This document shows positions 8,223 to 40,268 of a stretch of DNA of 44,021 nucleotides, piece after piece. The notes below the pieces were generated by a model. The model was not told the DNA's origin, made no database searches, and saw only the letters and a list, made by a program, of their open reading frames with translations. This DNA is from Stramenopiles sp. TOSAG23-6. Its lineage: Eukaryota. The translations under genes and the position numbers were made by a program. Numbering within the stretch: position 1 is the stretch's first letter; each line of letters opens with the position of its first letter. The stretch is taken from assembly GCA_900128565.1 (NCBI GenBank), contig LT635930.1:1-44021 (forward strand), written 5' to 3'.

Positions 8223-10276
8223 ATGGATTCTGAGCATATATTCAATGGCATTGCTCAACAAGGGGCTCGAAAAGAGGGTGGAAGAGGCCGTGGAAGAGGT
8301 CATGGAAGTGGTCGTGGAAGAGGTCGTGGAAGAGGTCGCCGTGGAAGAGGTCGCGGTCGCCGTCACCATGCACAAAATGAAGTAAAACGTCACAATAGTG
8401 GTCACAAAAGAATTCGTGAGAGAAGTTACAGTTCATCCAGTCGTCAGGGTAGTCGTGATGCTCCGCGTACTGTAAAAGATCTGGAACAGCAGCTTTTTTC
8501 GCAAAATGTGCCGCAAGCACGCAAAAAGAATAATAAAAAACGGAGGAAAAAAAAGAAAAATTCGTTGAATATTAATGTAAATTCTGCGAATAGTTCACAA
8601 AACAATGGCGTTCGGCGTTCACCTAGAGTAATTGCAAAAACTTTTCAGAACGATACTGAGATGCCGGATTTCACACCAACTATAAGTTCCGGAAAGAAAA
8701 AAGATTTTATGACTTCTTCTACTTTTGCTTCTTTGGACATTGACACGCGTCTAAAAAGAGGTCTGGCTGAAGTAATGAAATATGTCACAATGACACGTGT
8801 CCAAGAACAAACACTTCCAACTGCTCTAAGTGGAGTTGATTTACTTGCACAAGCTAAAACAGGGACGGGGAAGACTTTGGGATTTCTCATCCCTTCGATA
8901 GACAACGTCTTACGCTGTCGACAGCGTTTGAGTGGTGTTTCCATCATTGCAATTTCACCGACCAGAGAATTAGCTAACCAAATATGTACAGAAGCATCAA
9001 AGTTATTATATTTTCATCCTAATTTTAAGACGTGTTCAATGGTGGGTGGAACAAATAAAAAAACTGATATCAAACGTATCAAAAGTGGCATCGATCTTCT
9101 CGTAGCAACTCCTGGCAGGTTGATAGATCACTTGCAGTCAACTCCAGGATTTCGTGAGCAGTGTGCTAGTGTAAAAGTTTTGATTCTCGATGAAGCCGAT
9201 CAAATGCTAGAGATGGGTTTCAGACCTGATCTTACACGAATTATTAGTTATTTACCAAAGGATAGGCAAAGTTTATTATTTTCTGCAACAATGCCTAAAA
9301 GTTTGATGGATGTGTGTAAAATTGCAGTTAAACATGATTATAAATATATCAATACAATACCAAAAGATCAGCAGCAGACTCACAAAAAAGTTCCACAAGC
9401 TGTTGTCGTTGCACCAGTGGATCAAATTACAAATATGGTTATGAAAGAAATCTCTATAGAGATGCAAAGGCATCCAAATAATTTTAAAGTCATGATATTT
9501 TTTGTGACTGCTCGTTTGACCGGATTTATGGCAACTTTATGTCGAAAAGCTCGTATACCTACTATAGAAATGCATTCAAGAAAAAGTCAATCATACCGCA
9601 CAAAAGCAGCCAAACAATTCCGTGATGGAACAAAACTGGTATTGTTTACGTCTGATGTATCCGCGAGAGGTGTTGATTACCCTGATGTGACGCTTGTCAT
9701 GCAAGTTGGTATGACTGAACGAGAGCCTTACATGTATGTTTTATTTTTTTTCAAATTCGATTTTTTTTTCATACGAAATTTTGTACCTAACGAATTTTTT
9801 TTTGAAATATTTTTCTAAAATACATTCATCGTCTTGGTCGAACTGCTCGTGCAGCAAGTGGAGTAGAAGGTCGAGGAAAGCTAGTATTAGCCCCATTTGA
9901 GTCAAAATTTTGTCTTTCATTACTTACTGAGTTACCTATACAATTTGAGACGTATGTGCCTTGCAAAGATACTCATCCAGAAGTTTTTACTCATGTGACT
10001 CGGATGCTGAATGATATAAAAAAAGATCCGGAAATGAGAAAAGCAGCTGCACAAGCGTATCAAGCATGGATTGGATTCTATAATGGTTACTTGCGAAAAT
10101 TACGTTGGAACAAACCTGAACTCGTTCGCATGGGGACGGAATTTGCAAGGTCTATCAATGCATTGGACGTACAAGGAAACCCTCCAGCTCTTCTTCGACG
10201 AACTGTTGGGAAAATGGGACTGAAAGGAATTCGTGGTCTTACGATTGTGAACTCACCAAATGATTTAGTCTACTAA
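8223..10276 (+). CDS. DEAD-box RNA helicase (Mss116/Has1-related); exons 8223-9733 and 9826-10276 (~653 aa)
   Basis: N-terminal GR repeats; Q motif, AKTGTGKT, PTRELA, TPGRL, DEAD, SAT and ARGVD. Motif VI YIHRLGRTAR appears after intron removal. Confidence 0.93.
9734..9825 (+). other. GT-AT intron, family member (92 nt)
   Basis: TACAT|GTATGT...CATACGAAATTTTGTACCTAAC...AAAATACAT|T. No AG in the insertion. Removal gives REPYIHRLGRTAR. Confidence 0.88.
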
Positions 10277-10502
10277 ATTTCTAAATTATTTAGAAAATGA
10301 AAAATATGTCGAATTTGAAAAAAACAAAAGTCAAAAAAAAGATCAAAAAAATGCTTGTGAGATACCTTACTTACTATATAGTTCAATCAAAATTAATGAA
10401 AGTTTTATATATAATATATTATTCTTATAAATACACATATATCATTTTGTTTTTCAAGTCATTCTCGATATACCCATATCATAATCGATCCAGCAATTTT
10501 GT

Positions 10503-12158: not shown

Positions 12159-12396
12159 TGTCTTTTTCTCAGCAAGATTTTTAAAGTTATCCGCGGGGAT
12201 ACAAGGAAGGATACAGTCCCTTGGATACAGAGAGCGAGTTTAAATCGTTTGGAGGGGCTTTTAATAGCATGTTTGTTCCATCAACCGTATAAGTCAAAAG
12301 TGTAGATCAAAAGGTACCATGAACAATGTATTAAAATGATTTAAATTTTATTTTGGATGAAATCAATACACTTTATTTTCATCCTGAAAATCAAAT

Positions 12397-14184
12397 TTAT
12401 GTAACTAACATTTTTTTAGCAAATGTGCTCATACAACAACCAAATGCCTGTATAGGTGAAAATGGGTATTTAAAATCTAGAGAATATACATTCCTTCTCA
12501 CTTTCCCAAAACGAAGCTGTTCTGTATCAATCCCAAATTCACTTTCTAGATGACATGTGTTGTAAAAAAATATTTTAAAAATTTGAAATTCGTTAGGTAT
12601 GGTATTTGGTACGAAAAGAATAAATTTGAAATTCATGATAAAAACGTACATGAACTTTCCACCTCAAGTAGAAAATTTTTTTTTGACGCTTTCTTTACAC
12701 GACCATCAAAATTGAGAGTCCACGCATTCAAATCTTTATTCCATTTATTGTAAAAAAATATAAAAAAAAAATCGTTAGGTACAAAAGTTTCTATGAAAAA
12801 AAAAAAAAAAAAAGTCGATATTATTTTGAAAACGTACACGATGGCTGTTTTGTACGAAATTGTAATAATTGAGACTGTTCTTGAACGCCCAAAGATGCAT
12901 ATTCATTTCTAATAACCTCCTTCTCACCTCCGGTAGGTTTCTCCTTTGTAATTCGATTTTTTTGTTCCATATCAAATCGGTCACAAAGACTCATAAAATT
13001 AGCTTTCAATGCATCTTCATCATCATGACGTGGTAGTATCACTTTCATGTATTTTGGAAAAATATTTGAAAAAAAAATTGTTCGGTACAAAATTTCGTAT
13101 GAAAAAATAAATTCGAAATAAAAAAAAAATAAAACATACATCGAGTTTGGCACTCGGGCTAAGATATTAGTCTCAAAACGAATATGGATTAAATCGTGAG
13201 CAGCATATATTTTCAAAAATACTTTACATTTTGATGTTTCTTTGTTAGGTACAAAATTTGGTATGAAAAAGATATTTATTCAATTTTGAAAAAAACGTAC
13301 ATGACTACTTTTCACCTTTAATTGAGGATTTCGTGCTCTATAATCAAAAAGAGAAAACTGCTTTCCAGTCATATTACTTATCATACACCCTAAATATACT
13401 GGACTTGACTCAGATGTTGGTATACTATCTATAGTTGTTAGCCTAAAAGTGTTATTAATTGTACTAAATATACAGAGACCCTTGTGCGTACTATTCATAC
13501 TAGCAGCCATGTNTTCGTGAAAAAATATTTTTTTTTTGTCAAAAAGCTTGTTAGGTACAAAATTGTGTATGAAAAAAAATATATATTCATGATGAAAACA
13601 TACATCATAAATTCGCCCGATTGTTTGTGAAAATGCCAAGCAGTAACAAACGCACCGACGTATCGACGAATATATCCTAAACACCATATATCAGACACGG
13701 AATCAGTTACAGGAGATAAAAATGTTGCCTTTTGTCCGTGCATTAGTTGGTGCAGACGCTGACCTTCTGGAACCTCAGCAAAGTCCGTTGTTGGTTTCTC
13801 TTTAAATATTCCTCGGAGCTTATTTGGATTATCTTTTATTGGTTCGCTTATTAAAGCATTACCCGTAGAGAGATCAAAGAGTTCATCTCCACTAGCAGAA
13901 TACTCTTCGTAGGACTCTTCGTCGTCAGAAACATTATTTGAGCCTTCTTGAGAACTGTTATCCGAGTCTTTCTTAGAATCCTCAACATCTACAGTCACAA
14001 GTTCTGCCTGTATGTTGCTTTCTTTTACAGTGGGCGTACTTAATTTATTCACGTCTGTGCTGATTGGCTCACTTAGAATACCCTTCTCTACATTTGATTC
14101 AGTCTCTAAGGGAGCTGCGTTTAAATTAGTTTCGGCTACATCACCGAAAATATCCCAAACGTCATCGAACTTTTGATCTCCCAT
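12397..14184 (-). CDS. Tubby-like protein; six exons 14184-13604, 13508-13301, 13204-13140, 13046-12838, 12742-12650, 12554-12397 (~437 aa)
   Basis: The spliced product has Tub-domain motifs YLGCMISNMTGKQFSLFD, FETNILARVPNSMKVILP, KQPSWNKDLNAWTLNFDGRVKKASKKNFLL and LRFGKV...YSLDFKYPFSPIQAFG. Exon lengths sum to 1314 nt, in frame. Confidence 0.88.
12555..12649 (-). other. GT-AT intron, family member (95 nt)
   Basis: TCAT|GTACGT...ATACCTAAC...ACAACACAT|GT; restores the frame. Confidence 0.82.
12743..12837 (-). other. GT-AT intron, family member (95 nt)
   Basis: TCGT|GTACGT...GTACCTAAC...ACAATAAAT|GG; rebuilds the Trp of the Tub P-x-W-N motif. Confidence 0.85.
13047..13139 (-). other. GT-AT intron, family member (93 nt, in frame, no stop)
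   Basis: TCGAT|GTATGT...CATACGAAATTTTGTACCGAAC...AAAATACAT|G; gives PNSMKVILP. Confidence 0.85.
13205..13300 (-). other. GT-AT intron, family member (96 nt)
   Basis: CAT|GTACGT...GTACCTAAC...AAAATATAT|GCT. The two AGs after the branch motif are out of frame. Confidence 0.82.
13509..13603 (-). other. GT-AT intron, family member (95 nt)
   Basis: ATGAT|GTATGT...GTACCTAAC...CGAANACAT|G; gives EFMMAAS. Confidence 0.82.
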
Positions 14185-14612
14185 ATTCAGTGTAGTTCCA
14201 ATTCTTTTGTAGGCTTAAATAATGATCGTAATTTCAACTCTAATATTTTGCAAAACTTGAGCTCAGGTTTCAGATTAATCGTAAATCTCCTCAAAATAAT
14301 CAAGTTTCTACAAGGAACGAGATACGTAGCCTTCCTTTGAAGTTTGAACTGCCTGAAAGGAGGAGGAGGCTCTCTCGAGGATAATTTAACCAATTTAACC
14401 GTCGCAAAATTCACTAAAAAAAAATTAAAACTTATCAAAATAAACCGTTATTTCGATTTCGCGCTAGACGAAGATAGTACGTTCAACAGTATCGTTCAAG
14501 ATACTCTCAAGATACGCTCAAAATATCGTAAGGCGCACACACCTAGCAAGGCCTACGTAATTGTACACTTCATTTTTAAAGCCCTTTCCTCCCTTTATAT
14601 TCTAAACGCATT

Positions 14613-15470: not shown

Positions 15471-15569
15471 GGGGAAAATACGAAACACTTAAATGCGCAA
15501 TGAATTTTATTTGTTTAATTTTCAAGTCAGCACAATAAAAAGAAGACAGTGTTACTCAAAATATTATAA

Positions 15570-17057: not shown

Positions 17058-17468
17058 ACTGAAACTCTAGTTTGTGCTTAAAGGCTTATCTTAGACACCT
17101 AAAGATAGACAAAGACTGAATAATCTACTGGTATGGCAGAGATACCAATACACGTATCGCCTTATGTACAATCAAATTGAAATTAGGCGGCTCGTTTAGT
17201 CTATATTGTCCTGGAAAACCTCTCTCTTTTATCCAAGTGTCCGTCAAATTTAGTGAAACATCCCGAAACATCAACGTTGAAAAAATTTATTTTGCGCGCG
17301 CGGTCAACTTTTTGGAAGTCTTCTACTAAAGCACCACGACTCCAAGTATATATAGAGAATATTAATAGATTCCACGCTCTTTGAGTATTGTAATTATATA
17401 TCAAACTCCACGATCCTAGCTACGTATTCGACAAACGTTATAAGTCATCTTCTAGATAATCCTGCAAA

Positions 17469-19697
17469 ATGCCAAAGCGCTGGAAGCGGCGACTCCGAAC
17501 TCAAATGCGGTTGGCTCACGAAGCCAATGCATTACGTGTTCCGAATTCTTCATTGAATAACTCAAAAGTGGTTGAATCAAAGCAGCCCCAGGAATATTTC
17601 CCACTTGACGAAAAAGGTGCTGCTCGTTTTCTTAATGTAGAAGCGATGTCGAAGTCAGATTCCCCTACTGATCTGACGTATCATAGTGCTGGATTACCCA
17701 TATTATATGGTAGTTTAATTGATCTTCCTATTCCTATTCAGGAAGGAAGTGCTGATCTCAAAATAAAGTTAGTCGCCACTGGGGGAGAAATACAGTATTC
17801 TGTATCTTGGGAGTCTCTCTGCCCAGTAAAGCATTTAGGTGTATCCCCTTCGAAAGTTCAGAAATACATTGAAAGTGAGACATCGCTTAAAAATTCTAAT
17901 GAAAATTCTACAATACCTCCGAGTATTTTTGAAAAAGAAGAGTCACTAGAATTATTGCCCTTAACTAATCTGAAAGGTTCGGACAACATTTCCCTGTTTA
18001 TTCCTAAAGCTGGTGTTGTTACATTACATGTGCAAAATAGTAGTACTACCTGGCCCGTAAAGGATGTACATTTTCAAAATTGAATTTCGAATTTTTTTTT
18101 TTCATAGAAAATTTTGTACCTAACGATTTCTTTTTTTATCTACACTTTTTTTCACAATACATGATGATGTAGTATTACACTACGTTGTCTCTTTAGAACA
18201 CATTTGTCCTTTGGTAACGAAACGAAATATCATGTATTCACTTAAAAAGCAGTGTAACGATTTAAATTCGATATATCGTGATAGTCTTAGAGTTGTTGAA
18301 GAAAGTAGTCAAAATTTAGAAACACTTAGAAAGAAATTATGTATGTTTTATTTTTTTTTTTACAAAAAAATCGAATTTATTTTTTTTGAAAAATTTTGTA
18401 CCTAACAAATTTAAGGTTTTTTTTTTNAAANATTTTTNCNAAANACATAACAATAAACACTCCTGCTCCGGTGCTTGCAGGATCACAGACTGTAGTTATC
18501 CAACGTGATCCAAGTATACCATGGTATGAAAGAATGTACAATGATGCACACAAGGCAGGAAATATTCGTCTAATATCAGGTCGCGAATTATTATTTGGGA
18601 ATCCAGAAAATGATGTGCAAAAAGAACATAAAAGCAATAAGAATATTAATAATACTAATCATGATAATAAAGAAGATGGCGAAGTGGAGAGTAAACGTAT
18701 CATTCATCAGAATCCTGTAGATATTGAGCTCTCTGCGGCAGCAATCCAACGTAATAGAGCTAGAGCTTTGAAGAAAGAGCAAGAAGATAAGGAGCTTGAT
18801 CATTTCGCTGAAGCAAGGTATGAGTACTCTCAGTGGTTGGCAAATGAAGAGGAGAAACTCACTGGAAATCATGTTGAGTCTCCTATTAAAGAAAAACGTT
18901 GGAAGCCTTTTATTGGTATTCAACGATTGAAAGAATATAGAGAAGTAGAAGCGTCAAATTCACCAACAAATCGTAATTTAATTGTTGAATCTAAGGCCTA
19001 TGTCAAATCAAATGGTCCAAAAGATGCATTTGGTGATTTACGAAGAGCACAGCAAATAGAAAGGCGACAACGATTAACCAAAAAGCGCACAGGCAATATT
19101 GTACGAAAGAAGCAAAATGTTAAATCAGGTAAAAGGGTAATTAGAATGAATGAACACCATTGGGAGCATTCAGCAAAGGCTCGTGAACGAAATCTATTCA
19201 GGATGAAAAATCCAAGTACATTGCTCCAGCCCCATGGTTTTAAATCCAAGATCAATGGTAATTCGAACCAACAACAAAATCTTAGTAAACTTGAAAAGTT
19301 TGCAAAAAATAGTAAAAGTAATAAATATCAACATAGTACACTTGACACGCAACAAAATGATACAGTACAGAATATACGATTAACATCTTATGATAGGCCT
19401 ATCCTTAGTGCAGAGGAATTAGCAAAACGTCGGGCTGATATTAGAAAACAGTTTTCGCGTAAATTCTCATGCAAAAGTTCGAATAGGCGAAGAAATAATA
19501 TATCATCAAGGAGATCAAAAACATCTAGATCAAAAAGATCTGCTTCTTCAAAGGGTGAACAAAATAATAGGGAAGATAAAAGTGTGTATACATCCAAATT
19601 TCGACATCTTGACAATGTGAATACACTTTATGCACTTCGTGGAAATTCGATAATGTTTGGGTGCCCCTCCTCAATTGATTCTTCGTTTACTATATAA
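17469..19697 (+). CDS. Hypothetical protein with possible N-terminal GOLD-like domain and coiled coil; exons 17469-18065, 18163-18340, ~18448-19697 (second junction unresolved)
   Basis: Three open segments separated by two family introns. GVVTLHVQNS..W.VKD|DDVVLHYVV resembles a GOLD C-terminus. May be two genes. Confidence 0.55.
18066..18162 (+). other. GT-AT intron, family member (97 nt)
   Basis: GGAT|GTACAT...GTACCTAAC...CACAATACAT|GAT; joins two ORFs in frame. Confidence 0.82.
18341..18448 (+). other. Family element (108 nt); GT-AT removal creates TAA
   Basis: TTAT|GTATGT...GTACCTAAC...AAANACAT|AA. Several Ns; 3' boundary uncertain. Confidence 0.7.
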
Positions 19698-19759
19698 ATA
19701 TATATATAAAATTAAATATTTCTAGAGAAATTTCCTTTAATGCATACAAATAATTATAA

Positions 19760-29000: not shown

Positions 29001-32000
29001 TTGCTCTTTTTCGTGTCTTTTTCGTCTGTATCGTCGTCTTCTGTATAATGACTTGTCACCGATGCAATACTACCTTTAATAAATGATACGATTTCGCCCC
29101 ATACGACACTTGGTGAGAATGCTTCAATATCAACACCTTTTGCCACGGCAGACTTTTCCATTTTTGGCCAATATTTGTCAGTAAAAGACGAAAAAGTGAC
29201 TTGCCCACGCCAAACACCACCATTATTATCATCATTTTTTACATCAGCAACTTCATTATCAACAATATCATTATTCATCTTCAATTGATTCACACGATTT
29301 CGACCTAGTCTCATAACGTCGTCTTCTTCCTCACTATCACTAGCATCGGCCCAAGCACCAGCAGCAACAGGTATTTCAGTTAAACATCCAATATCTTCTG
29401 AAAATGTCACTCCTTGCACAAAATCCTCATTTTGACGATGTTGTACAAAAAACGGTTCAATAATATTATCGTCTTCTTCAGCAGTGCCAAGAGAATTATC
29501 TAATATATTGAGAAATTCTGATGTACGTAAAAACATAGGCCATTGTTCTTCACTGATATAACCAGTAAAAGACTTTGGTAACTTGCTCGGTAAAAATTTA
29601 TCACGTGGTAAATCTAAAGTTCCAGTGACAGAAGCACGCATACCTCGGAAATTACGCCACACTTCTTTACGCAGTACGGCATTTCGGGTCATAAAAACCT
29701 GATGCAAATGTTCTTTTTCAAACTTTTTATAATTGATTGGATCGTCTTGTACATTATTGTCGTCATTATTAGCCTCTTCAAGATCTATTCCATTTTCTAT
29801 TTGAAGAGCTCGCTCAGCAGAAGCACGCATTTTTGCACGAGCAACAGGAACGTTAAAGGTACCACCAAATTCAACACCTTCACCCATTATTTTCATTTTT
29901 TCCCAATGCCTTTGAAAACAATTCCACATCTTAAATATACAGCATGTAGTCTTTCCTGTCCCTGAGCGTCCTAATAATAGTAGTGAAGTGGGGGGGTTTG
30001 GTTGATAATAAATAATTTTCCATTCTTTCTCAGTTACACGAAACGGAATTTCTACTTGTATATCACTTTTACTCGTACCTTGATTCAAAATTGCAGTACA
30101 AAACTTTGAATTAAAGTCATAAAACTTCAAAATATTAAAAGCACCAGGTCTGTGTTCACCAGGAGGGTATACCTTCAATGGACTCATAGTAGTTACACCA
30201 GCACTTGAATACGTTTTTGGAAGATGTTGTTCAATGCCAGTACTAGTTCTTTCAATACCACCACCAACACCAGAATCTTCTAATTCTTTGGTAATACGAG
30301 CCTCTCCACCACGTTTCAGGCATAAACGAATATCTTCAATCTTTCTACTTAATTTATCGTGATTTAAAACTACACACCAAATTGTAATCATGTATTTTCG
30401 AAAAATATGACACAAAAAAANTNTTNGGNTACAAANTTNGNTATGAAAAATATATATCAATCTGAAATTGATAATTACAACGTACATATCGACATAAATG
30501 AAAACATCATTTTTTGCATCATTTCGATTTTGCGACAAACCAATATCTTGTTGCCATATGATTCTTGCACCACTGGTTAATTTTGTTTCGTACACTTTAT
30601 ATTTGGAAATAAGACTCTTTGCTTGTTTATAAGAACCCCAAAAACCTTTAGATATCGTAATAATTTCCTCAAATACTTGAATGATTAACCTCATATCTCG
30701 TTTTCGTTTTTTCTTTATCCAACGATACATTTCAGGTGACATTTTTACTTTCCACGGATTCTCTTTTAGTTCTTCATACTTACTTTCTAATTCTTCTTCT
30801 AATGTTTTAACTTTTTTCGGAACGTTTCGAATATTTCGAATGGCGTTGTAGCTTCTGATTGCTGCTTCATCTTCTTCTTCCATCAAATCATCATCATCGT
30901 CTGATTCGCCGGATTCTTCATCATCACTACTGCTTCCATTATCTTCACTATCTCCGTCACTAAGACTATTGCCTTCATCACTATCTTTCTCTGGGAAAAG
31001 AAGAAATAATCCAGGAATTTGATCCAAAAGTTGAGAAATTCTGACACGTATTGCTTTACACTCCGCTTCACGTTGTGCCAACTTTTGTTTTTTCGTAAGA
31101 GTTTTCACTTCTTTCTTAGTGAGAGATGTTTCAATTTTAGTTGTAGAATCTTTGATATCTATCTTTGATCGATCATTCGACTGTTCAGATTTTGCATTTA
31201 CATCATCATCTTCTGATTCGTCATCAAATTCACCATTTTGTCGCTGCTCCCATGCAATCTTTGCATTTTCAAATTCCTTTTCAAATTCTACTATCAACCC
31301 ATATCTCACCTTTTTTTTATTGTTTCTAGGCATATACTCTATTGCCGTTTTACCTTTAGCATTAACCAAAAGAGGATTTATTTTACCTTTATGCTTTTTG
31401 AGAAGATGGATAATAATGGCGCATTTTCGAGAATGTTTTGATTTAGTATGAAGTAATTTGAAAGCTGCATGAAGAGGAGTGTCTTTGTCATCAGATTCTT
31501 CATTATTCCAATTTGGATTTGCTTTCACTTTTAAAAGTTCTGCAACTAATGTGACTGATCGAGTTTCCACAACAGCATTGTATAGAAACAAATTGAATAT
31601 ACCATCAAGAGAATTTAACAATATTGAAGCTTTCGTTGATTTACTTTCGACTAACTGTCCTGAAGATATTTGTTTACGTAAATTCATCATCAGATGTTTC
31701 TGAATTTTTCGATACTTTGGAATAAAACATTCATATATTTGCTTATCTGACAACTTCGAATTTTTCAACAATGTCGAACCCTTCTCTTTCACACCTGATA
31801 AAAACAATTCTACTGGACACAAACCATCACGATTACCTAATAATAAGTCATAATCTTTGTTGCCAAAAAAGAAATCAAGCTTCACTTGATAAAACTGGCT
31901 AAACATAAAATTTGTGATATCCGCTTCTTCAACGTCTTCGGGCAATGAATTTTTAAAAAATTCTCTGCGAATTGATACATCTCTATTATCGGCATCAGAT

Positions 32001-35000
32001 TCATAATGTGTCAAATCGCGAATTGCTACATGTAAAATGGAACCAGTGCGATCTTTAGGATCATTCCAATAAACGTCGGCTCCAGCTTTAATTAGAGCGT
32101 CGTATATATCTACATCTAAAACCGGAAACAAATTTAACTTAAAAAATTTGAACAATAATCGATTTAACCAATTTTGTAACTCTTTTTTCTTTTCCAAACG
32201 CCAATCTCTCTTTTTATTCGCTTTATTCGGTTTTGGATTTTGAGATTTTTCTTTAGGAGTTATTTTTGATTTTTTAACATTTTCGTCATCACTATCACTA
32301 TCACTGTCACTGTCACTGCTGCTCGAATCAGCAATTCGATCTAAAGTTGGCATTTCGGAACTATCAGAATTACAATCAAAATCAGAATCGCTATTCACTG
32401 CGACTAAATCAGGTATTGAATCTGAATCACTATCACTTTCTTTATCAATTGTTTTACTTTTCTTTGCCTTTTTTGAAGAAGGTTTTTCAACATTTCTTTC
32501 TTCATCTTCATCTTCATCTTCGGGTATTTCAGGATCAATGTAATCAAAAGGATAAAACTTCATAAAAACATGGACAAATTCAAGAACATCAAACGCTTTC
32601 GACAATATTTCCTCTACTACCAAGCCTTTAAAACGACCAGTAGAAAAACGAACTGATTTTGGAGAACCTTGAGATTCAGAATAACATTGAAAAAATTTTA
32701 AAATTTCTGAAAAAGTATCATCTAAGATACATTGAAAATTTGCCCTGCCATCATTATTTTCAATTCCGAACTGCCAAACAAATTTATCTATAGTAGAAAT
32801 ATATTGATCTTCACCAAGAAGGAGTATACAAGCGTAATTAAAGAAGAACGTTTTCGCGCCTACTAAATATGTTTCCAACCAATACTGAAAAACGACAGTC
32901 GACAATTCCGATGATTGAAATATTCCTCTAACAAAATCACCTATTTTCGGAAACTCGGGAGCGATTGCAGTAGTATATATTTTTAAATCTTCTTCTTGTT
33001 TTTTGCCATCTTTAGGCCACATTGAACACGAGTCGTTGTATGCTCTTTTAATTTCGAAATCAGATTCCAGAGACTGATGGTCAAGGGAGAAATGATTAAA
33101 AGGCTGTAAAGATCTCTCTCGTATCTCAAAAAGGTGTTGATATACTGCATGAGATTCTTGGTTTATTGTTTTGTTTTCATGACTCGAAGCTGATTCATAA
33201 ACAAAACAGATGACATTAGTAATACTTGAAATTGATTTAGCAACATATTCACCTTTTACTTTATGTGCACGATTGATAAGTACATCTACGGACGGAAACT
33301 TTGGAAACGATTCATTTAAGATAGCGTTACTGATTATTCCTTTCAACTCTTCACCTGTTGCTAAAAATTGAGCCCAAACCCAATTTTTATCGATAACATT
33401 TGAAAATGCCATGTTGTCAACTGCGACTAAATATGTTTCGTACAATGTAGTATCTTTCACGATGTCTAAAGCGGTTGGTTTTTCTTTTGGTTGTACTTTA
33501 GGTTGTGACTTTTTCGTTTTCTTTTTCTTCGTATTACTTTTTAAATGAGCAAATTCGTCATCATCTGAACTTTCAGATGCACTTGCTATAGGGATAAGAC
33601 ATGGTATACTATCATCACTATCACTATCACTATCCGAATGTATAGGTTGTAGCTTTGGCATATCATCACTATCACTATCACTATCACTATCTGAATTCAT
33701 AGGTTGTAACTTTGGCATATCATCACTATCACTATCTGAATGTAAATGTTGTAGCTTTGGCATATCATCACTATCATTACCAGTGTCTTGTTTAATTTCA
33801 TCTTGTATTTGCATATCGTCAAAATCATCAGGTAATTTATGAAATGTCATTCGTGCTAACATTTCATTCAAAAGTGTATAATGCTTAGTGTAATGGTCAT
33901 GAATTTGCTTCTCTTCTATTTTTTTAACTTTTTCACTTTTATCAAACCAGGAATTGATTACAGATTTATTGTTTTCTATTTCGACAGTGAGTAAGATACA
34001 ATCCAGTGATCGATTACAATCTTCTGCCGACCATTTCATTCTCAATAAATCAGAAGCATTCAGTTCTGTTGTCCAAAGAATACGCCTAGGGTTGCAGCAC
34101 TCGCAAGAATTCTCAAAGTAATCCAAAATAACATCCTTATAAATTTCTACATGACCATCTGACGAGACTTCGCTTGAACAGATTCCAAACATTCTCATCG
34201 AAACGGTCGAATTTACTAATGTCTTACGATCATAATCATGTATTGTGAAAAATAATTGTAGAATTATTTTTGTTAGGTACGGAATTTCATAAGAAAAAAT
34301 ATTAGATAAAACATTCAATTGTAAAAACATACATGGCTTTCCAATGATATAGAGATTTTACGATTTAGGTCTCCACCGAAAAAAGAAGAAATTTCAAAAT
34401 ACTCATCATCCTCAGGTTCGTCTTCATTTGAGTATGAATAGCTAATTTTCAAACTCCAAGTTGAACAATCTGAAGCAATTATGTTACTAAAGGTTAATTT
34501 GAACTCGTAATCTAAAACATCTCCATCTTCTTCAACTGTCTTTGAGTCTGCTAATTTTTTTATACTAAAATATTGTTTTAGAATTATTCGTTCACTAAAG
34601 ACATCCTTAGGTGATGCATATCGTCGAAAGTCCTTTTCTTTTAATCTTTCTAGAGCATTGCCTAGCGAAAGTTTTAATTCTGGATAAAAACAAGAGGTAT
34701 TATCGTGTACACTATCTTTTAGTTTTGGTACAATCATATCGTTGAAAAGTTGCAATACATCAATATCACCTTGATCGGCAGCTTCTACTAAAATGTTCCA
34801 AAATAATCCACCCAACGTACTAAAATCTGTTTTTTTACAATTCTTTCTAAAATATTCTATAACACGTTTTATACCATATTTGCTACCCGCTGGATGCGGA
34901 CCTAATTTTAAATACGGTACAAAAGAAGTAGTTTGTAACGAATACTCAAGACAATGCATTAGCCATTTTACATCTATACAATCCCAAAATGCTTTTGCAA

Positions 35001-38000
35001 ATGCAATATCACAGCGAGAATAAGTTTCAAAATACAGAGTCTTTACAATATTTGATTTCAGAACATGATCTTCACTAATTTTGATTTTTTTCGTCTTCGT
35101 CTTTGGTGACACCGGAATTGTAGATGGATTGCAATATGAATCAGGTAACACTACTTTTGACTCATTTCGCCAACGAATCCATTCACGTTTAAATCTTTCT
35201 AACTTTTGTACAGCTAATAATTGATCTGGAGAATAATAGCCATATTCGACATATTCCGTGGCAAAACGCCTCATTAATTGATGCATATTGGGGGCATAAT
35301 CTAATGTAATTGTCATTAAATCTGAACGAACGCGTTCAAAATTTTTGATAATTTTGTAAATTTGAAATTTATCTCGTACTTTGGTAATGGGAGAAATGTC
35401 TTTTATCTTAAAAGGACCATTACCATTCTTATAAGGACCAGAAGTATTACCACGAAATATAGGATGATAAGTTGTCACAGTTCCAGGATATTCATTTGAT
35501 CTATTTGATACTAAGGCATCTATAAGATTACGGGTCTTCTGTGACTTGATGAGACGCCACTCGACTTCTTTATCTACTATATTTCGACATTCCGCTTCAG
35601 CGACAACGCGCATTTTCCAGTGAGATGTACTTGTTTTTATATCGTTTTTATTTATACGAGTTCGCATCACAGCATCAATCATAAATTCAGGCATATTTTT
35701 GGGCGCAATTTCTGTCGTCACTATGCAGAGTTGCCATACAATATCGCCATTATTTTTTACAATTGGTCGAATCACAGGACAATCATAATGTGTAATCAAA
35801 TCTTCATCTCCCACAAGAGTAGTCGTATCCTCACCAATATAAGTAGGTAGTCTCAGATCAGTCAGTTTAATGTTTGATCTTATATAGGCACCACTAACAG
35901 AAACATTATCATCATACCAATTAACTACAAACGAATCACTTTGATTTTCGAAATCAAGTTTATCCGAGGTTTTTCTACGAGCAGATAACCACAAAAAATT
36001 CTCACAATCAGGATTGTATCCCTGTCCATGCAATAATAAAAGAGTACCCATATGTTTTGGCGTTTCCACTACAAATTTCGACATAATCGACAGAACACTT
36101 TCAAATCGATTCAAGCACAATGTTTCACTACAACCATATTTTTTACCACATTCATAGACACACCCTTCGATATTCGTTTTTTTCCCAATATTTTTCACAG
36201 TAGAAACAAGACCAGAAATACTTTTCATCGCCGTAGAAAAAATACCAGAATCTTTCTTTGAGTTTTTATTAATCAACACACATGTCTTTTCATGATTTTT
36301 CACATTTTCATACAGACCAAAATAGCCACATTTTGCAGTACAACAAAAACGTTTGGAAAATTTTGCCTCTGATATAACGATTGTTTTACTAGGGTTCGGA
36401 CCACCAACTTTTTTATTCTTTTTTATTTCACCACTTTTGAGTAATTCAACTTTATATTTGTTCTTCTCGGTGTTAAATGAAAGAATTTTACCAGCAGTTC
36501 CATGTATGATGAAAAGATATTTCAAAAAAAAAACTAAAATTTGTTAGGTACAAAATTTCATACAAAAAAACATGTAGACAAAAAATTGAAATGAAAACGT
36601 ACATTGTACTTTAACGCTTTTGGATTTTTCAAACCATTAATCAAAATTATATCACCAACGTAAATTGTTTCATCGACTGGTTCACATTTAATTTTTTCTA
36701 TTTCAGCAACTTTTATATTCGATGATTTATTCGATGATCCATTTAGAGACGTTTCAATAGTATCTGGAGAAGTTGAACGAGAGCTCGATTTAGGGTTAGG
36801 GTTAGTGTTTTGTTCTTTTGAATCTTTTGAATCTTTTGATGTATTGATTTGTGATGAAGATTTGGCGTCATCTTTATTTTTCTTCTTTTTCTTCTTTTTC
36901 TTCTTCTTCGACTTTTTCGCAACATTTGTAGACGTCTGCGCATTAGTCTTAGGGTTCGAACGAGAATTTGCTTTTTCAACTTTCTCCGATGTAGACTTAC
37001 TCTCATTTCTTGCTTGTTTTAGGCGAGCTATTTTCGCAGCATGTTCTTCAATAATTGCAGCTTCCTTCAATTGTTGCTCTCGTACAACTCTTTCCTCATC
37101 TGCAGCGATTTTAGCGACTCTTTTTTGCTCTTCCAAGATTTGTTTTTCTTTCTGAATTCTTCGTAATTCTTTTTCTTTTGCAATTTCAGCAGCCTTGAGA
37201 CGTTTTTCTTCGGCAAGCTTCTCCTGTTCAATACGTCTTTGTTCCTCATTCTTTTCCCTTAAACGCTTTTCTTCAGCAAGTTTCTCCTGGTCTCTTTTTC
37301 GTTGCAACTCTTTATTTTCCTTCATACGCTTCTTTGCAGCAAACTTTTCCTCTGCCTTACGACGCGCTAATTCTTTCTGTTTTCTCTTATCTCACTTAGC
37401 TATTTTGGTTTTGAACGTAAAGTGGAAGCTAGCATTGTATTGTTCTTGTGTTGTTTGATTTTACACGTTTCTCTTCAGCAAGCTTAGTCGCAATTTCCCT
37501 TTCACGCTTAAGTAAGGCTTCCACTTTTCGTCGTTCTTCATCAAGTTTCTCTTCCTGTACATTGCGATTGGCGATATTAGAGTGTGACATAGTCTCAAGC
37601 TGAGATGGCTGAGGTTCGAGCATGCCTAGTGCCTGTGTGAGCGTCAACACACCCTGCTGCACCAAATCGCGCAGGTCATTGGTCAAGGCACTCATCCCTT
37701 TCGAAGCAACTGTGCGATAAAACTGCTGGTCTACTTCTGGTTGAATAGCACTATCTGAACGTTCGAATGGGTCATTAATCACGGTCTCCGTTCCACTGGA
37801 AGCGACTCTGCTGTACGACTGCTGGTTCAAGGAAACCCTTGGCTGGTTTACTTCAGGTTGAATAGTACTATCTGAACGTTCGCGCGTGTCATCAGTCAAG
37901 GCACCTATTCCATTGGAAGGAACAGCGCGATGAAACCGTTGCTTTACTTGTCGAACGACAATGTCTGGACGTGGATTTCTGCATACTCTGCAAATTATAC

Positions 38001-38058: not shown

Positions 38059-38214
38059 GACTAAACTTTGACCATGTGGCGACGCAAAAGTTAGTAGTTT
38101 TAGTCAACTGCTACAATATAAATTCCCACTTTACGTGTAAAATCAAACAACACAAGAACAATACAATGCTAGCTTCCACTTTACGTTCAAAACCAAAATA
38201 GCTAAGTGAGATAA
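37387..38214. repeat. Perfect 82-bp inverted repeat: 37387-37468 and 38133-38214
   Basis: Checked block by block; 82/82 identical in reverse complement. Confidence 0.95.
37389..37464 (-). other. Probable non-family intron (GT...AT, 76 nt; or GT...AG to 37386, 79 nt)
   Basis: CGT|GTAAAA...GTGAGAT|AAG. Contains stops in both flanking frames; both candidate ends are in frame. Confidence 0.5.
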
Positions 38215-38425
38215 AGGTCAGACAAACCAATCCTACAAGTTTGGTAGCTGCGAAGAAACGATGATGATAGTGTTTCTGGCCATGCGCGGTCACTTGAGTC
38301 AGGCAGATCGCATCATAAATCAAATGTTACCGGGTAATCTAATGGCCAATCAAAAATCTTTCATTTCTTGACTCATTCATGATATAAATAATATCTTGTG
38401 CGAAAAGATGGTCATTTTAGTCTAA

Positions 38426-40268
38426 ATGGCTTCGTCACCAGTGACCAGCGATATGAAGCTGAGGCCATCTCATGCAGAAAAAGCTTTGACATTTTATGAA
38501 GCTGTGGCCAAAGTTGTTGCTTTACGTCTTGAGGATAAAAATGCTGAAGAAAAAGAAGAAACTTGTTCTTTAGGTGTTTTCATCCCTGATCTGGCAAATT
38601 GTATTTTTACAGGTCACACAAATACAGACATGGATTCCATAGCGTCAGCAATTGCAGCTGCACATCTATATCCTGGGGGTATTGCTGCCCGAAGTAGTGA
38701 CATCAACTCTGAAACTGAGTTTTGTCTGAAACGTTGGGTAAGTCAAAACATACTAACACTCTCTTGTTTACTTCACTAATTGTTTTTTTTTTCTGTTGTA
38801 CACCATATTATTAAAACCAACTCATTTAAACTCTGCAAACATTTACATTACAGGATATACCAATGCCTATTCCGTTTATTGAAGCTTTGGATGCTCAAAG
38901 GAAGCAGAATGCAATTATCAACATGGAAAATTCACCTGAACATACAAGCCGTGTCTGCTTAGTTGACCACAACCAAATTACGCAAAGTCCTGCTCAATTA
39001 GAAGAGAGTTTTGTTGTAGGAATAATAGATCATCATGCTATGCAAAAAAAAACTATATGTACAGATAAACCTGTGTTTGTTGATATTCGCCCTTGGGGCT
39101 CCGCATGTAGTATGTATGTTTAATTTTTTTTTAATTTCAATTTTTTTTTCGTACGAAATTTTGTACCTAACAAAAATTAATTTTTTTTTTGAAATATTTC
39201 TCCAAAATAAATTATTACAAGTCAGTATTTAAATCAGAGTAAGCAAATCCCAAAAAAGTATACTATATTTATTTCAAGCAATACCGCAATATATAGGCCC
39301 TACTACAATTTTACACCCTTTTATACTAACCTATTTTTCATTGAACACACATTTGACATATATTACAAATAATAAAATTGCAGGTATGCTATTATCTGGA
39401 ATTCTCTCGGATACATTAAACCTTCAGTCTCCAACAACAACAAATCATGATCGTCTTGCAGTTGCAACTTTAGCTTCTATTGCTGGTGTTGATGACATCA
39501 ATACACTTGCAATTGAGCAGTTTCGTGCGAAAAGTACGAGTTTAGCTTCGCTCTCTGCATATCAAATTGTATGCGGTGATCGAAAGATATTTGATTGTGG
39601 TGGTGAAATTATGGCATTTGGAACTTGTGAATTTTACGGTGGTATGAATTCTCTTTTAGGACGCATTTCAGAATTTATGTATTTTTTATTTTTTTTCAAA
39701 TTTGATTTTTTTTTCGTACGAAATTTTGTACCTAACAATTTTTTTTTTTAATATTTTTCCAAAATACATACATGAACTGCGAGCATTGACAAAGGAAGAA
39801 AAACTGCGGTATAATTTCTTGACACTAGTTGATATAGAAAATATGCATTCCATTTTAGTTATGCCAACTATGGCCGAAGTTTTACTTGCCAGATGTGCCT
39901 TCAAAACAACTAATAAAGATAATAAAAACATAGAACCTTTACACTATAGTGGAGTTTTCGAATCCTTACAAGAGATCAAGAAAATCGAAAATGAAGTTCA
40001 AAATGCAGGTGTCCTTGATCTAGGAAATCGTGTTTCAAGAAAACATGATTTTATTCCACCATTAGCTGCGGCTATTAATGATGGTTTCGTACTACCCGAT
40101 GATGTTAAAAAGAGTATTAGTGATGAAGAAGAAACTGCTGAATATGGACCTGTTGTTTTAGCTTGTGGCGAACATGTATGTGGTCTTCAAAGAATAAGTA
40201 TGAAAGGACTAGGCCTTGGAGTATTGGCGTGTATTCGACTATCAGAATGTGTAGGTCATTGTCATTAA
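38426..40268 (+). CDS. Family II (DHH/DHHA2) Mn-dependent inorganic pyrophosphatase, PpaC-like; exons 38426-38737, 38854-39113, 39213-39257, 39376-39678, 39770-40268 (~472 aa)
   Basis: GHTNTDMDS, LVDHN, IIDHH, RPWGSACSII, IAGMLLSGILSDTL...SPTTT and VSRK..FIPPL. Confidence 0.88.
38738..38853 (+). other. Canonical GT-AG intron (116 nt)
   Basis: TGG|GTAAGT...TTACAG|GAT, in frame. Confidence 0.88.
39114..39212 (+). other. GT-AT intron, family member (99 nt)
   Basis: AGTAT|GTATGT...GTACGAAATTTTGTACCTAAC...AAAATAAAT|T; gives GSACSIITSQY. Confidence 0.87.
39258..39375 (+). other. Non-family non-canonical intron, probably GT-AA (118 nt); GT-AT alternative ending 39363
   Basis: AAAA|GTATAC...TACTAAC...AATAATAA|A ATT GCA gives QIPKKIAG. 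The nearby CAG (39381-39383) is out of frame. Confidence 0.65.
39679..39769 (+). other. GT-AT intron, family member (91 nt)
   Basis: TTTAT|GTATTT...GTACGAAATTTTGTACCTAAC...AAAATACAT|A. No AG inside. Gives SEFIHELRAL. Confidence 0.87.

What the first reader, a model, noticed from the sequence alone, without database searches (positions are those of the whole stretch)
9734..39769. A repetitive family of GT-AT introns dominates this window: non-canonical 3' splice site
Seen: 13 related 91-108 nt insertions at 9734-9825, 12555-12649, 12743-12837, 13047-13139, 13205-13300, 13509-13603, 18066-18162, 18341-18448, 30390-30485, 34238-34332, 36502-36602, 39114-39212 and 39679-39769, in five unrelated genes and all sense to the host. 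They share GTAYGTTTT, a T-tract, (C)RTAYGAAATTTTGTACCTAAC, then 31-42 nt, then AAYAHAT. In 12 of 13, removal from GT to AT restores the frame. All 13 are preceded by T (12 by AT) and 9 are followed by G, giving AT|GT...AT|G, the usual AG|GT...AG|G pattern with T in place of G. Established: GTAYGT and CTAAC are U2-type 5' splice and branch signals, and the 3' AG is close to invariant in spliceosomal introns. Inference: this organism's major spliceosome routinely uses AU acceptors, and the introns spread recently as introner-like elements. I do not recall a described genome with a dominant GT-AT class, but that needs a literature check.
Basis: partly seen in the sequence, partly recalled or inferred. 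Interest (0 to 1): 0.96.

Follow-up and report, generated by a model that had tools for sequence, protein, structure and literature searches.

The report
Repeated mini-introns that end in AT
A compact marine protist genome carries many copies of a ~95-base mobile intron that is cut exactly out of messenger RNA but ends in AT instead of the near-universal AG, which bears on how the splicing machinery picks the end of an intron.

Summary
A profile search finds exactly the 13 listed copies (E 4e-21 to 3e-12), all sense to five unrelated genes. All 13 start with GT and end with AT. Twelve are preceded by AT and nine are followed by G.

- **Frames:** removal joins the host frames in 12 of 13; copy 18341 fails.
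- **RNA and DNA:** two polyA metatranscriptome contigs skip copies 13047-13139 and 12555-12649 exactly. An independent DNA metagenome keeps the copies.
- **Boundaries:** because the flanking AT repeats the terminal AT, GT..AT and AT..AC give the same mRNA in 12 copies. Only GT..AT is invariant (13/13 at both ends). AT..AC is impossible for copy 12743 and for a 14th, degenerate intron at 6308-6416.
- **AG is bypassed:** AG dinucleotides downstream of the branch site are passed over in four introns.
- **Other introns:** a canonical GT-AG intron (38738-38853) lies in the same gene as a non-family intron (39258-39375) whose acceptor cannot be AG and is probably AA.

Best reading: introner-type elements that bring their own donor and branch site, with a non-AG 3' cut that coincides with a 2-bp target duplication. 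The closest precedents are the non-canonical introners of Fritillaria and Amoebophrya. The spliceosome's role, the exact cut bonds and genome-wide dominance are inferred, not shown.

The parts
9734..9825 (+). Element copy 1, in the DEAD-box helicase gene (phase 2).
   Evidence: nhmmer E 8.8e-21. Removal rebuilds helicase motif VI across the junction. Pfam Helicase_C runs to the last residues of exon 1.
12555..12649 (-). Element copy 2, in the Tubby-domain gene.
   Evidence: nhmmer E 1.9e-16. PolyA RNA contig X8 record 25 skips 12553-12647, which is 95 bases and the same removal within a 2-base ambiguity.
12743..12837 (-). Element copy 3, in the Tubby gene. It is the only copy preceded by GT rather than AT.
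   Evidence: nhmmer E 1.8e-16. The junction rebuilds a TGG (Trp) codon directly ahead of the exon that matches Pfam Tub positions 185-211. Where X8 record 25 and X6 record 18 end fits an mRNA that keeps the upstream GT (indirect).
13047..13139 (-). Element copy 4, in the Tubby gene. Its branch motif is CGAAC.
   Evidence: nhmmer E 4.3e-21. PolyA RNA contig X6 record 19 skips 13046-13138, 93 bases.
13205..13300 (-). Element copy 5, in the Tubby gene. It holds AG 5 and 23 nt after the branch A; neither is used.
   Evidence: Kept in DNA contig X2 record 4 and in the non-polyA RNA-library contig X5 record 10. The first 8 letters of X6 record 19 do not continue into it (indirect sign of splicing).
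13509..13603 (-). Element copy 6, in the Tubby gene.
   Evidence: nhmmer E 4.4e-16. In frame after removal. Kept in DNA contig X2 record 4.
18066..18162 (+). Element copy 7, in the unnamed gene 17460-19697.
   Evidence: nhmmer E 4.7e-20. In frame after removal. X8 record 30 starts at 18161 with 5 unplaced letters (indirect).
18341..18448 (+). Element copy 8, in the same gene. It is the one copy whose GT..AT removal does not join the frames. It holds 5 N.
   Evidence: A cut 2 nt further on (ending AA), or a donor 4 nt further in, would be in frame. Unresolved.
30390..30485 (-). Element copy 9, in the giant gene. It is 96 nt and stays open in frame if retained. It holds 7 N.
   Evidence: nhmmer E 2.5e-15.
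34238..34332 (-). Element copy 10, in the giant gene.
   Evidence: nhmmer E 5e-18. Removal of the three copies in this gene gives a 4688-aa ORF.
36502..36602 (-). Element copy 11, in the giant gene. An AG 10 nt after the branch A is not used.
39114..39212 (+). Element copy 12, in the DHH phosphoesterase gene.
   Evidence: nhmmer E 5e-18. The junction is collinear with homologues.
39679..39769 (+). Element copy 13, in the DHH gene.
   Evidence: nhmmer E 5e-19. The junction is collinear with homologue P0009 without a gap. The deposited gene model P0008 instead reads 13 element-coded residues.
6308..6416 (+). A 14th intron of the same style, possibly a degenerate copy, in a Rieske-domain gene. 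It runs GTAC..GCTAAC..35 nt..ATAT, is preceded by GT, and bypasses an AG 15 nt after the branch A.
   Evidence: Weak family match, E 0.64. The GT..AT isoform aligns gap-free to P0049, while the GT..AG isoform needs a 6-residue gap; it scores better against 3 of 3 homologues (157/151, 132/130 and 94.7/89.7 bits).
39258..39375 (+). Non-family intron in the DHH gene (GTATAC donor, TACTAAC branch site). Its acceptor cannot be AG; the favoured cut ends in AA.
   Evidence: There is no AG between the branch site and the conserved Ala-Gly codons. Scores against a profile of 32 homologues: 443.4 bits (ends AA), 434.7 (ends AT, 39258-39378), 412.0 (canonical 39239-39383).
38738..38853 (+). Canonical GT-AG intron in the same DHH gene, used for comparison.
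   Evidence: The junction is collinear with homologues and with gene model P0008.
37389..37466 (-). 76-nt intron of the giant gene. It fits GT..AG (37466-37391) or GT..AT (37464-37389) equally well.
   Evidence: Both cuts are in frame. It coincides with one arm of an 82-nt perfect inverted repeat.
6647..6685 (-). Partial copy of the element's central block, between two convergent genes.
   Evidence: nhmmer E 5.2e-5, profile positions 40-75.

Best explanation
These are copies of a ~92-108 nt introner-type element: a small non-autonomous mobile sequence that becomes an intron where it lands. The copies sit sense-oriented inside coding exons of a compact, AT-rich marine eukaryote.

Each copy stays in the genomic DNA and is removed exactly from mRNA. 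It brings its own 5' splice site (GTAYGT, the first bases of the element) and its own branch site (TACCTAAC inside a conserved central block). These are the strong U2-type signals typical of intron-poor eukaryotes.

The 3' cut does not follow an AG. It falls 32-43 nt downstream of the branch A, directly after a conserved A-rich end (AAAATAC plus AT), and AG dinucleotides on the way are passed over.

The two last removed bases (AT) repeat the two last exon bases, and the element ends form a short inverted repeat (GTAT..ATAC). That is the pattern expected from a small inverted-repeat transposon with a 2-bp target duplication. On this view the element supplies the donor and branch site, and the duplicated target supplies the acceptor position.

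The host machinery, most likely its U2-type spliceosome, therefore accepts a non-G last intron base. It accepts U in this family and probably A in a neighbouring intron, while still using AG in a canonical intron of the same gene.

Shown: the family, its orientation, frame restoration, exact RNA removal for two copies, retention in DNA, bypassed AGs.

Inferred: that the spliceosome does it, the exact bonds cut, the target duplication, and thousands of copies genome-wide.
For: 1. Family and position: 13 of 13 full-length profile hits lie inside ORFs and sense to them.
2. Frames: 12 of 13 removals join the longest open frames, against 1 in 3 expected by chance for each. The spliced ORFs are 661, 447 and 4688 aa.
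3. RNA: polyA metatranscriptome contigs X6 record 19 (68 + 209 letters on either side) and X8 record 25 (96 + 89 letters) skip 93 and 95 bases at copies 13047 and 12555. Four further contig ends stop where a spliced mRNA would (X6 records 18 and 19, X8 records 25 and 30).
4. DNA: contig X2 record 4 of an independent metagenome runs unbroken through copies 13205 and 13509. Records 2, 3 and 8 run from exons into copies.
5. Ends: only the GT..AT register is invariant (GT 13/13, AT 13/13). The AT..AC register gives AT 12/13 and AC 10/13. Copy 12743 and intron 6308-6416 are preceded by GT, so AT..AC is impossible for them.
6. AG is bypassed after the branch site in 13205, 18341, 36502 and 6308.
7. 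Conservation is concentrated in the donor, the branch block and the 3' end, while the T-rich linkers vary.
8. Non-AG use is not limited to the family: intron 39258 scores 22.7-31.4 bits better with a non-AG cut than with the canonical one.
9. [quoted passage not shown]
Against: - Direct RNA evidence covers 2 of 13 copies. It comes from assembled contigs of two samples of one study, not raw reads, and the tool warns that DNA can be present in RNA libraries.
- One non-polyA RNA-library contig (X5 record 10) retains copy 13205.
- The cut register cannot be fixed by sequence. Every copy also allows TG..(C/A/T)A, and 12 of 13 allow AT..AC.
- Copy 18341 does not restore the frame.
- No snRNA or splicing-factor gene could be examined: no genome is held and Rfam found nothing in the window.
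- The target duplication rests on flanks alone; no empty site was seen.
- There are many AT and AA dinucleotides between the branch site and the used site (3-6 AT per copy). AT by itself therefore cannot be the signal, and what selects the site is unknown.
- The terminal stem is weak. In 6 of the 13 copies folded, z-scores ran from -2.0 to +1.6, and the ends paired in the best fold of 3 of those 6.
Confidence: 0.66

Rival explanations
1. The same introns are cut two bases upstream at both ends. That would make them AT..AC introns, a pair of ends both spliceosomes are known to handle through the A-first/C-last interaction. The GTAYGT would then start at intron position +3.
For: Twelve of 13 copies are preceded by AT and 10 of 13 have AC before the terminal AT, so AT..AC gives the identical mRNA in those copies. 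That AT-AC is the established non-GT-AG class is recalled knowledge; U2-dependent AT-AC introns are named in the abstract listing of PMC1557818.
Against: - In this register the ends are not invariant. Copy 12743 would be GT..AA, copy 13205 AT..AT and copy 39114 AT..AA. Intron 6308-6416 would be GT..AT.
- ATGTAY does not match the U12 donor RTATCCTT quoted in 10.1101/2020.10.12.336362, nor, from recall, the U2-type AT-AC donor.
- Where X8 record 25 and X6 record 18 end at copy 12743 fits an mRNA that keeps the upstream GT, not the downstream AT (indirect).
Confidence: 0.08
2. Removal is guided by the element's own terminal pairing and direct repeat rather than by splice-site dinucleotides. This is what has been proposed for the non-conventional introns of euglenids and hemistasiid diplonemids and for the introner elements of Amoebophrya. 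The GTAYGT and CTAAC motifs would be incidental or auxiliary.
For: - The ends are inverted repeats ((C)ATGTAT..ATACAT(G)), and the last two exon bases repeat the last two removed bases in 12 of 13 copies.
- The ends pair in the best fold of 3 of the 6 copies folded.
- In intron 39258 the favoured cut again repeats the exon's last two bases (AA/AA).
- Amoebophrya introners have 8-20 nt inverted repeats plus 3-5 nt direct repeats across the boundaries (PMC7789003, passages read). Hemistasiid introns pair at their ends (PMC12621601, abstract and section 5 read).
Against: - Folding energies are no better than shuffles (z -2.0 to +1.6 in the 6 of 13 copies folded). Copy 12743 shows no terminal stem.
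- The best conserved blocks are exactly a donor and a branch site at spliceosomal spacing.
- All ends share one dinucleotide pair, unlike the diffuse ends reported for those lineages.
- Strict sense orientation is expected if one-stranded signals matter.
Confidence: 0.15
3. The family is a transformed class of minor (U12-type) introns. The minor spliceosome tolerates varied 3' terminal bases.
For: GT-AT is a known rare U12-type boundary: 17% of 1,014 non-canonical U12-type introns in Physarum (10.1101/2020.10.12.336362, passages read). GTATGTTTT differs from Physarum's GTATCTTT variant at one position, and CCTAAC resembles the CCTTRAC branch motif.
Against: - Donor positions +5/+6 are GT, not CC or CT.
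- The branch A lies 32-43 nt from the 3' end, against about 9-12 nt in U12-type introns.
- The non-family non-AG intron 39258 has a textbook U2-type TACTAAC.
- No minor snRNA could be looked for.
Confidence: 0.05
4. The copies are excised or absent at the DNA level (somatic elimination, or insertion polymorphism), or they are assembly artefacts. The RNA contigs would then simply reflect DNA that lacks them.
For: The window appears to come from an amplified or low-quality assembly: 13 of its 18 N lie inside copies. RNA libraries can carry DNA (tool warning).
Against: - An independent DNA metagenome (X2) carries the copies in place, in 4 contigs covering 5 copies wholly or partly.
- X6 record 19 fits an RNA lacking two adjacent copies and ending at a third.
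- All 13 copies are sense-oriented and carry splice signals.
Confidence: 0.02

Closest known systems
Non-canonical introners of the larvacean Fritillaria borealis (10.1101/2025.08.15.670264, abstract and Introduction read)
   Same: Both are short non-autonomous inverted-repeat elements that became introns. The non-GT/AG ends coincide with the transposon termini. Removal is ascribed to the U2-type spliceosome, and canonical and non-canonical introns coexist.
   Different: In Fritillaria fewer than 10% of introns follow GT/AG (95% escape the rule by its abstract), and the introns are called abundant and diverse. Here the donor stays a perfect GTAYGT and only the last base departs (AT), uniformly across the family. 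The host here is a unicellular marine eukaryote. The spliceosome's involvement and any U2AF changes are untested.
Introner elements of Amoebophrya (PMC7789003, abstract and passages read)
   Same: Both are repeated introns with an inverted repeat at the ends and a short direct repeat across the exon/intron boundary. That repeat makes the cut register ambiguous. Both hosts are marine protists, and standard annotation fails on them.
   Different: Amoebophrya shows no dominant dinucleotide pair, its repeats are longer (IR 8-20 nt, DR 3-5 nt), and U1 was not detected. Here there is one pair of ends, a 2-nt repeat, weak pairing, and strong donor and branch motifs.
Canonical introners / introner-like elements of Micromonas, Aureococcus and dinoflagellates (10.1101/2020.10.14.339549, passages read; PMC9860276 and PMC12130899, passages read)
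   Same: The element carries one splice site and the other comes from, or abuts, the target duplication. Both have high copy number, sit in unrelated genes, and show a bias to one orientation.
   Different: Those families splice at G(T/C/A)..AG. Here the position supplied by the duplication is AT, and AGs are ignored. The published surveys start from annotated introns. This assembly's deposited gene model P0008 does not model the two copies in that gene as introns, so such a survey would likely miss the family.
Rare GT-AT boundaries among U12-type introns (10.1101/2020.10.12.336362)
   Same: The same terminal dinucleotides.
   Different: Those are a small minority with U12 donor and branch motifs close to the 3' end. 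This family has U2-like motifs and a distant branch site.

Membership tests
U2-type spliceosomal intron | 5' splice site GT with an extended match (GTRAGT / GTAYGT) | tested here: met
   GTAY in 13 of 13 copies and GTAYGT in 11 of 13. The consensus itself is recalled knowledge.
U2-type spliceosomal intron | Branch site YTRAY / (TA)CTAAC upstream of the 3' end, followed by a pyrimidine-rich stretch | tested here: met
   CTAAC is exact in 11 of 13 copies (one has CGAAC, one has N). The branch A is 32-43 nt from the end, and the tail is T-rich.
U2-type spliceosomal intron | 3' terminal AG, normally the first AG after the branch site | tested here: not met
   All 13 copies end in AT. AGs after the branch site are bypassed in 3 copies and in intron 6308-6416.
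U2-type spliceosomal intron | Exact removal from mature mRNA | tested here: met
   Two junction-spanning polyA RNA contigs cover 2 of the 13 copies. Seven copies (six whole, one in part) lay in the stretch examined.
U2-type spliceosomal intron | Lariat formation at the branch A; dependence on U1/U2/U5/U6 | not testable with these tools
   No raw reads, no genome and no snRNA in the window.
U12-type (minor) intron | Donor RTATCCTT | tested here: not met
   The family has GTA(T/C)GTTTT. The consensus is quoted.
U12-type (minor) intron | Branch motif TCCTTRAY about 10-20 nt from the 3' end | tested here: not met
   The motif is TACCTAAC at 32-43 nt.
Introner / introner-like element | Many similar introns at unrelated positions in unrelated genes | tested here: met
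   13 copies in 5 genes within 44 kb. Element-matching contigs number 5,048 in DNA run X2, but the tool warns that depth is not copy number.
Introner / introner-like element | Transposon hallmarks: terminal inverted repeats and a target site duplication | tested here: inconclusive
   There is a short imperfect inverted repeat (about 6-10 nt), and a 2-nt direct repeat AT in 12 of 13 copies. No empty site or autonomous partner was seen.
Introner / introner-like element | Splicing at canonical boundaries (as in all families accepted by the published surveys) | tested here: not met
   The ends are GT..AT. Curation rules of the survey are quoted.
Structure-defined non-conventional introns (euglenid / hemistasiid / Amoebophrya type) | Stable pairing that brings the intron ends together; no conserved end dinucleotides | tested here: not met
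   Six of the 13 copies were folded: z -2.0 to +1.6, and the ends paired in 3 of the 6. The ends are uniform GT..AT.
DNA-eliminated sequence (ciliate-type IES) | Absent from the bulk (somatic) DNA | tested here: not met
   The copies are present in the window and in contigs of an independent DNA metagenome. The standard genetic code gives long ORFs.

The most novel reading that the evidence does not exclude
In this lineage the major spliceosome no longer requires G as the last intron base. It uses A-U routinely, probably A-A as well, and A-G in older introns. It picks the 3' site by an A-rich end motif or by distance from the branch site, and passes over AGs. A family of thousands of mobile mini-introns exploits this by letting a 2-bp AT target duplication serve as the acceptor.

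That would be the first genome with a near-uniform GT-AT intron class, and a natural experiment on the first-base/last-base pairing of the second catalytic step.
Probability: 0.5. Interest if true: 0.88.

Novelty: new variant of a known kind. Interest (0 to 1): 0.77.

Why it matters
The terminal AG is one of the most constant signals in eukaryotic gene expression. In solved spliceosome structures (recalled knowledge) its G pairs with the first intron base during exon ligation. A lineage that routinely ligates after A-U, on introns whose donor and branch site are otherwise textbook, isolates that single contact for study. In this it differs from Fritillaria or Amoebophrya, where many signals changed at once.

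It also shows a new way for a transposon to become an intron: the element supplies the donor and branch site, and a 2-bp AT duplication marks the acceptor.

There is a practical consequence. Gene models built under the GT-AG rule are wrong at these sites. The deposited model of the DHH gene (P0008) reads element-coded residues and scores 398.4 bits against its homologues, compared with 443.4 for the model proposed here. Proteomes derived from such assemblies, and introner surveys that start from annotations, would be affected in the same way.

Tried and rejected
- **Whole genome:** not held, so there is no genome-wide count and no snRNA or splicing-factor check.
- **More copies elsewhere:** a scan of metagenome contigs for the 17-base core gave 64 loci. 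The family profile found no real copy in any of them (best E 0.001, a 28-position fragment), so all are taken as chance matches.
- **Rfam on the window:** 0 matches.
- **Read laying:** The only call therefore covered 11515-18426, which holds 6 whole copies and part of a seventh. Copies 9734, 30390, 34238, 36502, 39114 and 39679 and the non-family introns have no RNA test. Its joint table (table 5) was filled with cross-mapping between copies (160 rows not shown), so the RNA joints were read from table 8. Parts without RNA cover say nothing.
- **Protein database:** for the DHH exons it held relatives at 43-69% identity and the assembly's own gene model, but no transcript-derived protein of the same species. 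For the Rieske gene the 99% hit P0047 is an unspliced read-through.
- **PDB searches for the Rieske junction:** uninformative.
- **RNA folding:** no stable structure.
- **Copy 18341:** no cut with GT..AT ends joins the frames. Alternatives exist (ending AA 2 nt later, or a donor 4 nt later) but nothing decides between them.
- **Intron 37389-37466:** GT..AG and GT..AT are both in frame and differ by one residue; undecidable.
- **Literature:** searches found no paper describing a dominant GT-AT class or a GT-AT introner. Supplements were closed, so tables of boundary counts in the Amoebophrya, dinoflagellate and introner-survey papers could not be checked for such a class.

Full report
**What the window is.** The window is 44,021 bases, 36% G+C, with long ORFs under the standard code on both strands and little spacer. 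Nothing in it looks prokaryotic. No tRNA and no Rfam family was found. It is a compact eukaryotic stretch. Its sequence recurs at near identity in seawater DNA metagenomes, and in part in seawater metatranscriptomes. A source label attached to the 100%-identical gene model P0008 hints at a marine stramenopile; I did not pursue the origin. No whole genome is held.

**The observation.**
- The 13 stretches align into one family.
- A profile built from them recovers exactly these 13 as full-length matches (E 4.3e-21 to 2.6e-12). The only other hits are a partial core at 6647-6685(-) (E 5e-5) and weak matches.
- All 13 lie inside ORFs and are sense to them. The five hosts are:
  - a DEAD-box helicase (Pfam DEAD 4.8e-48, Helicase_C 1.6e-13);
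  - a Tubby-domain gene (Tub 2.5e-11 and 1.1e-7 on two exons);
  - an unnamed gene;
  - a giant gene;
  - a DHH phosphoesterase.
- The consensus is (AT)|GTAYGTTTT, a T-rich linker, a conserved block TTTCATACGAAATTTTGTACCTAAC, a second T-rich linker, and ATATTTTT..AAAATACAT|(G).
- Conservation is concentrated in these three blocks. Mean pairwise identity is 72% (57-92%, 78 pairs).
- T precedes 13 of 13 copies, AT precedes 12 of 13, and G follows 9 of 13. Chance values are 6e-12 and 7e-5.

**Frames.**
- Removing each copy from GT to AT joins the longest open frames on either side in 12 of 13 cases; each has a 1 in 3 chance of doing so at random.
- The spliced genes read as single ORFs of 661 aa (helicase, one copy), 447 aa (Tubby, five copies) and 4688 aa (giant gene, three copies).
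- In the helicase the junction rebuilds motif VI. I recognise that motif from memory of the family.
- In the Tubby gene one junction rebuilds a Trp codon directly ahead of the exon that matches Pfam Tub positions 185-211.
- Two copies (13047, 30390) would stay open in frame if retained, so the frame test is silent for them.
- Copy 18341 is the exception. It carries five N, and no GT..AT cut joins its frames.

**RNA and DNA evidence.** The single read-laying run had to avoid short pieces between N. It covered 11515-18426, which holds six whole copies and most of a seventh.
- **Direct RNA evidence.** Two contigs bridge a copy. They come from polyA-selected metatranscriptomes of two samples of one study.
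  - X6 record 19 lies on 13139-13206 and then on 12837-13045, skipping 93 bases.
  - X8 record 25 lies on 12648-12743 and then on 12464-12552, skipping 95 bases.
- **Indirect RNA evidence.** The ends of these and two other contigs stop where a spliced mRNA would depart from the DNA.
  - X6 record 19: first 8 letters unplaced, next to copy 13205.
  - X8 record 25: first 2 letters unplaced, next to copy 12743.
  - X6 record 18: first 30 letters unplaced, next to copy 12743.
  - X8 record 30: first 5 letters unplaced, next to copy 18066.
- **DNA.** In an independent metagenome (X2), record 4 runs unbroken through copies 13205 and 13509. Records 2, 3 and 8 run from exons into copies.
- **Against the reading.** A contig of a non-polyA RNA library (X5 record 10) retains copy 13205. 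That could be unspliced precursor or carried-over DNA.
- **Copy number.** Element-covered bins reach summed depths of 1,263-38,204 in X2, against 5-16 in copy-free covered bins, and 5,048 contigs were laid. The tool warns this is not a copy number, but it fits a very abundant family.

These are contigs, not reads. Seven of the 13 copies have no RNA evidence of any kind.

**Which bonds are cut.** The two bases before a copy (AT) repeat its last two bases. In 12 copies the same mRNA therefore results from cutting GT..AT, TG..CA or AT..AC, and where G follows, also TA..TG. Sequence alone cannot fix the register, but three things favour GT..AT.
1. It is the only register in which both ends are invariant (GT 13/13, AT 13/13). 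In the AT..AC register the ends would be AT 12/13, and AC 10/13 with AA twice and AT once.
2. Copy 12743 and the additional intron 6308-6416 are preceded by GT, so AT..AC is impossible for them. At 12743, where two RNA contigs end fits an mRNA that keeps the upstream GT (indirect).
3. GTAYGT is a full donor consensus, whereas ATGTAY matches neither AT-AC donor type.

The TG..NA register can never be excluded here, because T precedes every copy.

**AG is not used.** AG occurs after the branch A at these distances:

| Intron | AG position after branch A |
|---|---|
| copy 13205 | 5 and 23 nt |
| copy 18341 | 10 nt |
| copy 36502 | 10 nt |
| intron 6308-6416 | 15 nt |

. Using the second AG of copy 13205 would run into a stop codon.

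For intron 6308-6416, in a Rieske-domain gene, both a GT..AG cut and a GT..AT cut are in frame. The GT..AT product aligns without a gap to the closest relative P0049, while the GT..AG product needs a 6-residue gap. It also scores better against 3 of 3 homologues: 157/151, 132/130 and 94.7/89.7 bits. This intron has the family's layout (GTAC, T-rich linker, GCTAAC, then 35 nt to ..ATAT|G) but only a weak profile match (E 0.64). It may be an old copy.

**Other introns in the window.** The DHH gene is the most informative, because 32 homologues of 333-581 aa (lengths as listed) could be fetched.
- Its first intron, 38738-38853, is a plain GTAAGT..AG intron, and the junction is collinear with the homologues.
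- Its third intron has a GTATAC donor and a perfect TACTAAC, but no AG between the branch site and the conserved Ala-Gly codons; the only AG lies inside those codons.
- Scores against a profile of the 32 homologues:

| Gene model | Bits |
|---|---|
| 39258-39375, ends AA | 443.4 |
| 39258-39378, ends AT | 434.7 |
| canonical alternative 39239-39383 | 412.0 |
| deposited model P0008 | 398.4 |

- P0008 handles the two family copies in other ways. It reads 13 element-coded residues at copy 39679 and reads through an out-of-frame stretch after copy 39114.
- So non-AG acceptors are not confined to the family, AG is still used elsewhere, and the last base is probably not always U.
- The favoured cut at 39258 again repeats the last two exon bases (AA/AA).
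- The 76-nt intron of the giant gene fits GT..AG and GT..AT equally.

**How it most likely works.** The element supplies a donor as its first bases and a branch site in its conserved core. Both are U2-type in sequence and spacing. The 3' cut lies two bases beyond a conserved A-rich terminus that is the inverted complement of the 5' end (GTAT..ATAC). Those two bases duplicate the exon's last two.

This is what a small inverted-repeat transposon with a 2-bp duplication of an AT target would leave. It parallels known introners, in which one splice site comes from the element and the other from the duplication (10.1101/2020.10.14.339549). The difference is that here the duplicated bases are AT, not AG.

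What tells the machinery where to cut is open. There are 3-6 AT per copy between the branch site and the end, so the dinucleotide alone cannot be the signal. Candidates are the A-rich end motif, the distance from the branch site, and the weak terminal pairing. That pairing appears in the best fold of 3 of the 6 copies folded, with energies no better than shuffles. Insertion by reverse splicing at AT|G sites, rather than by a transposase, would leave the same picture and cannot be excluded.

**Comparison with what is known.**
- **Fritillaria borealis** is the closest described case. [quoted passage not shown]
- **Amoebophrya** comes next. Its introners have inverted and direct repeats across the boundaries and no dominant end pair (PMC7789003).
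- **Hemistasiid diplonemids** have diffuse ends and pairing (PMC12621601).
- **GT-AT** itself is known only as a rare U12-type boundary. This family fails the U12 donor and branch-distance criteria.
- **Literature gap.** Five literature searches and term searches inside two introner surveys turned up no dominant GT-AT class and no GT-AT introner. Supplements could not be opened. The surveys start from annotated introns, which in this assembly are mis-modelled at the two copies in the one gene model I saw.

**Verdict.** It overreaches in naming the major spliceosome, in treating AU as the recognised signal, and in claiming dominance and recency. I file it as a new variant of a known kind (non-canonical introners), of high interest because only one splice signal has changed.

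Noticed in passing
window 37387-37468 and 38133-38214: An 82-nt, 100% complementary inverted repeat with 664 nt between the arms brackets the first coding exon of the giant minus-strand gene. One arm coincides with that gene's 76-nt intron. It could be a real structure or a chimera from genome amplification.
   Followed up: partly
window 39258-39375: A non-family intron with a GTATAC donor and TACTAAC branch site whose acceptor cannot be AG. Homologues favour a cut ending in AA, after an exon that also ends in AA.
   Followed up: yes
window 13513; 18427-18444; 30421-30441: Thirteen of the window's 18 N lie inside three copies of the element. Base calling or consensus apparently failed where many near-identical copies compete.
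   Followed up: no
P0008 versus window 38426-40268: The deposited gene model of the DHH gene reads 13 element-coded residues and an out-of-frame stretch. It scores 45 bits lower against homologues than the model with GT..AT and non-AG introns. Other models of this assembly are probably affected in the same way.
   Followed up: partly
window 6647-6685 (-): A partial copy of the element's central block (E 5e-5) lies between two convergent genes. It is the only hint of a copy outside a coding exon.
   Followed up: no
window 40302-44021 (-): A long ORF, open at the window end, has at least five near-identical repeats of about 190 residues. No family search was run on it.
   Followed up: no
window 12743, 6308 and 37464 introns: Three introns share the same upstream context, CGT|GTA. 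In two of them (12743 and 6308) an A-to-G change at exon position -2 would be synonymous (TCA to TCG).
   Followed up: no
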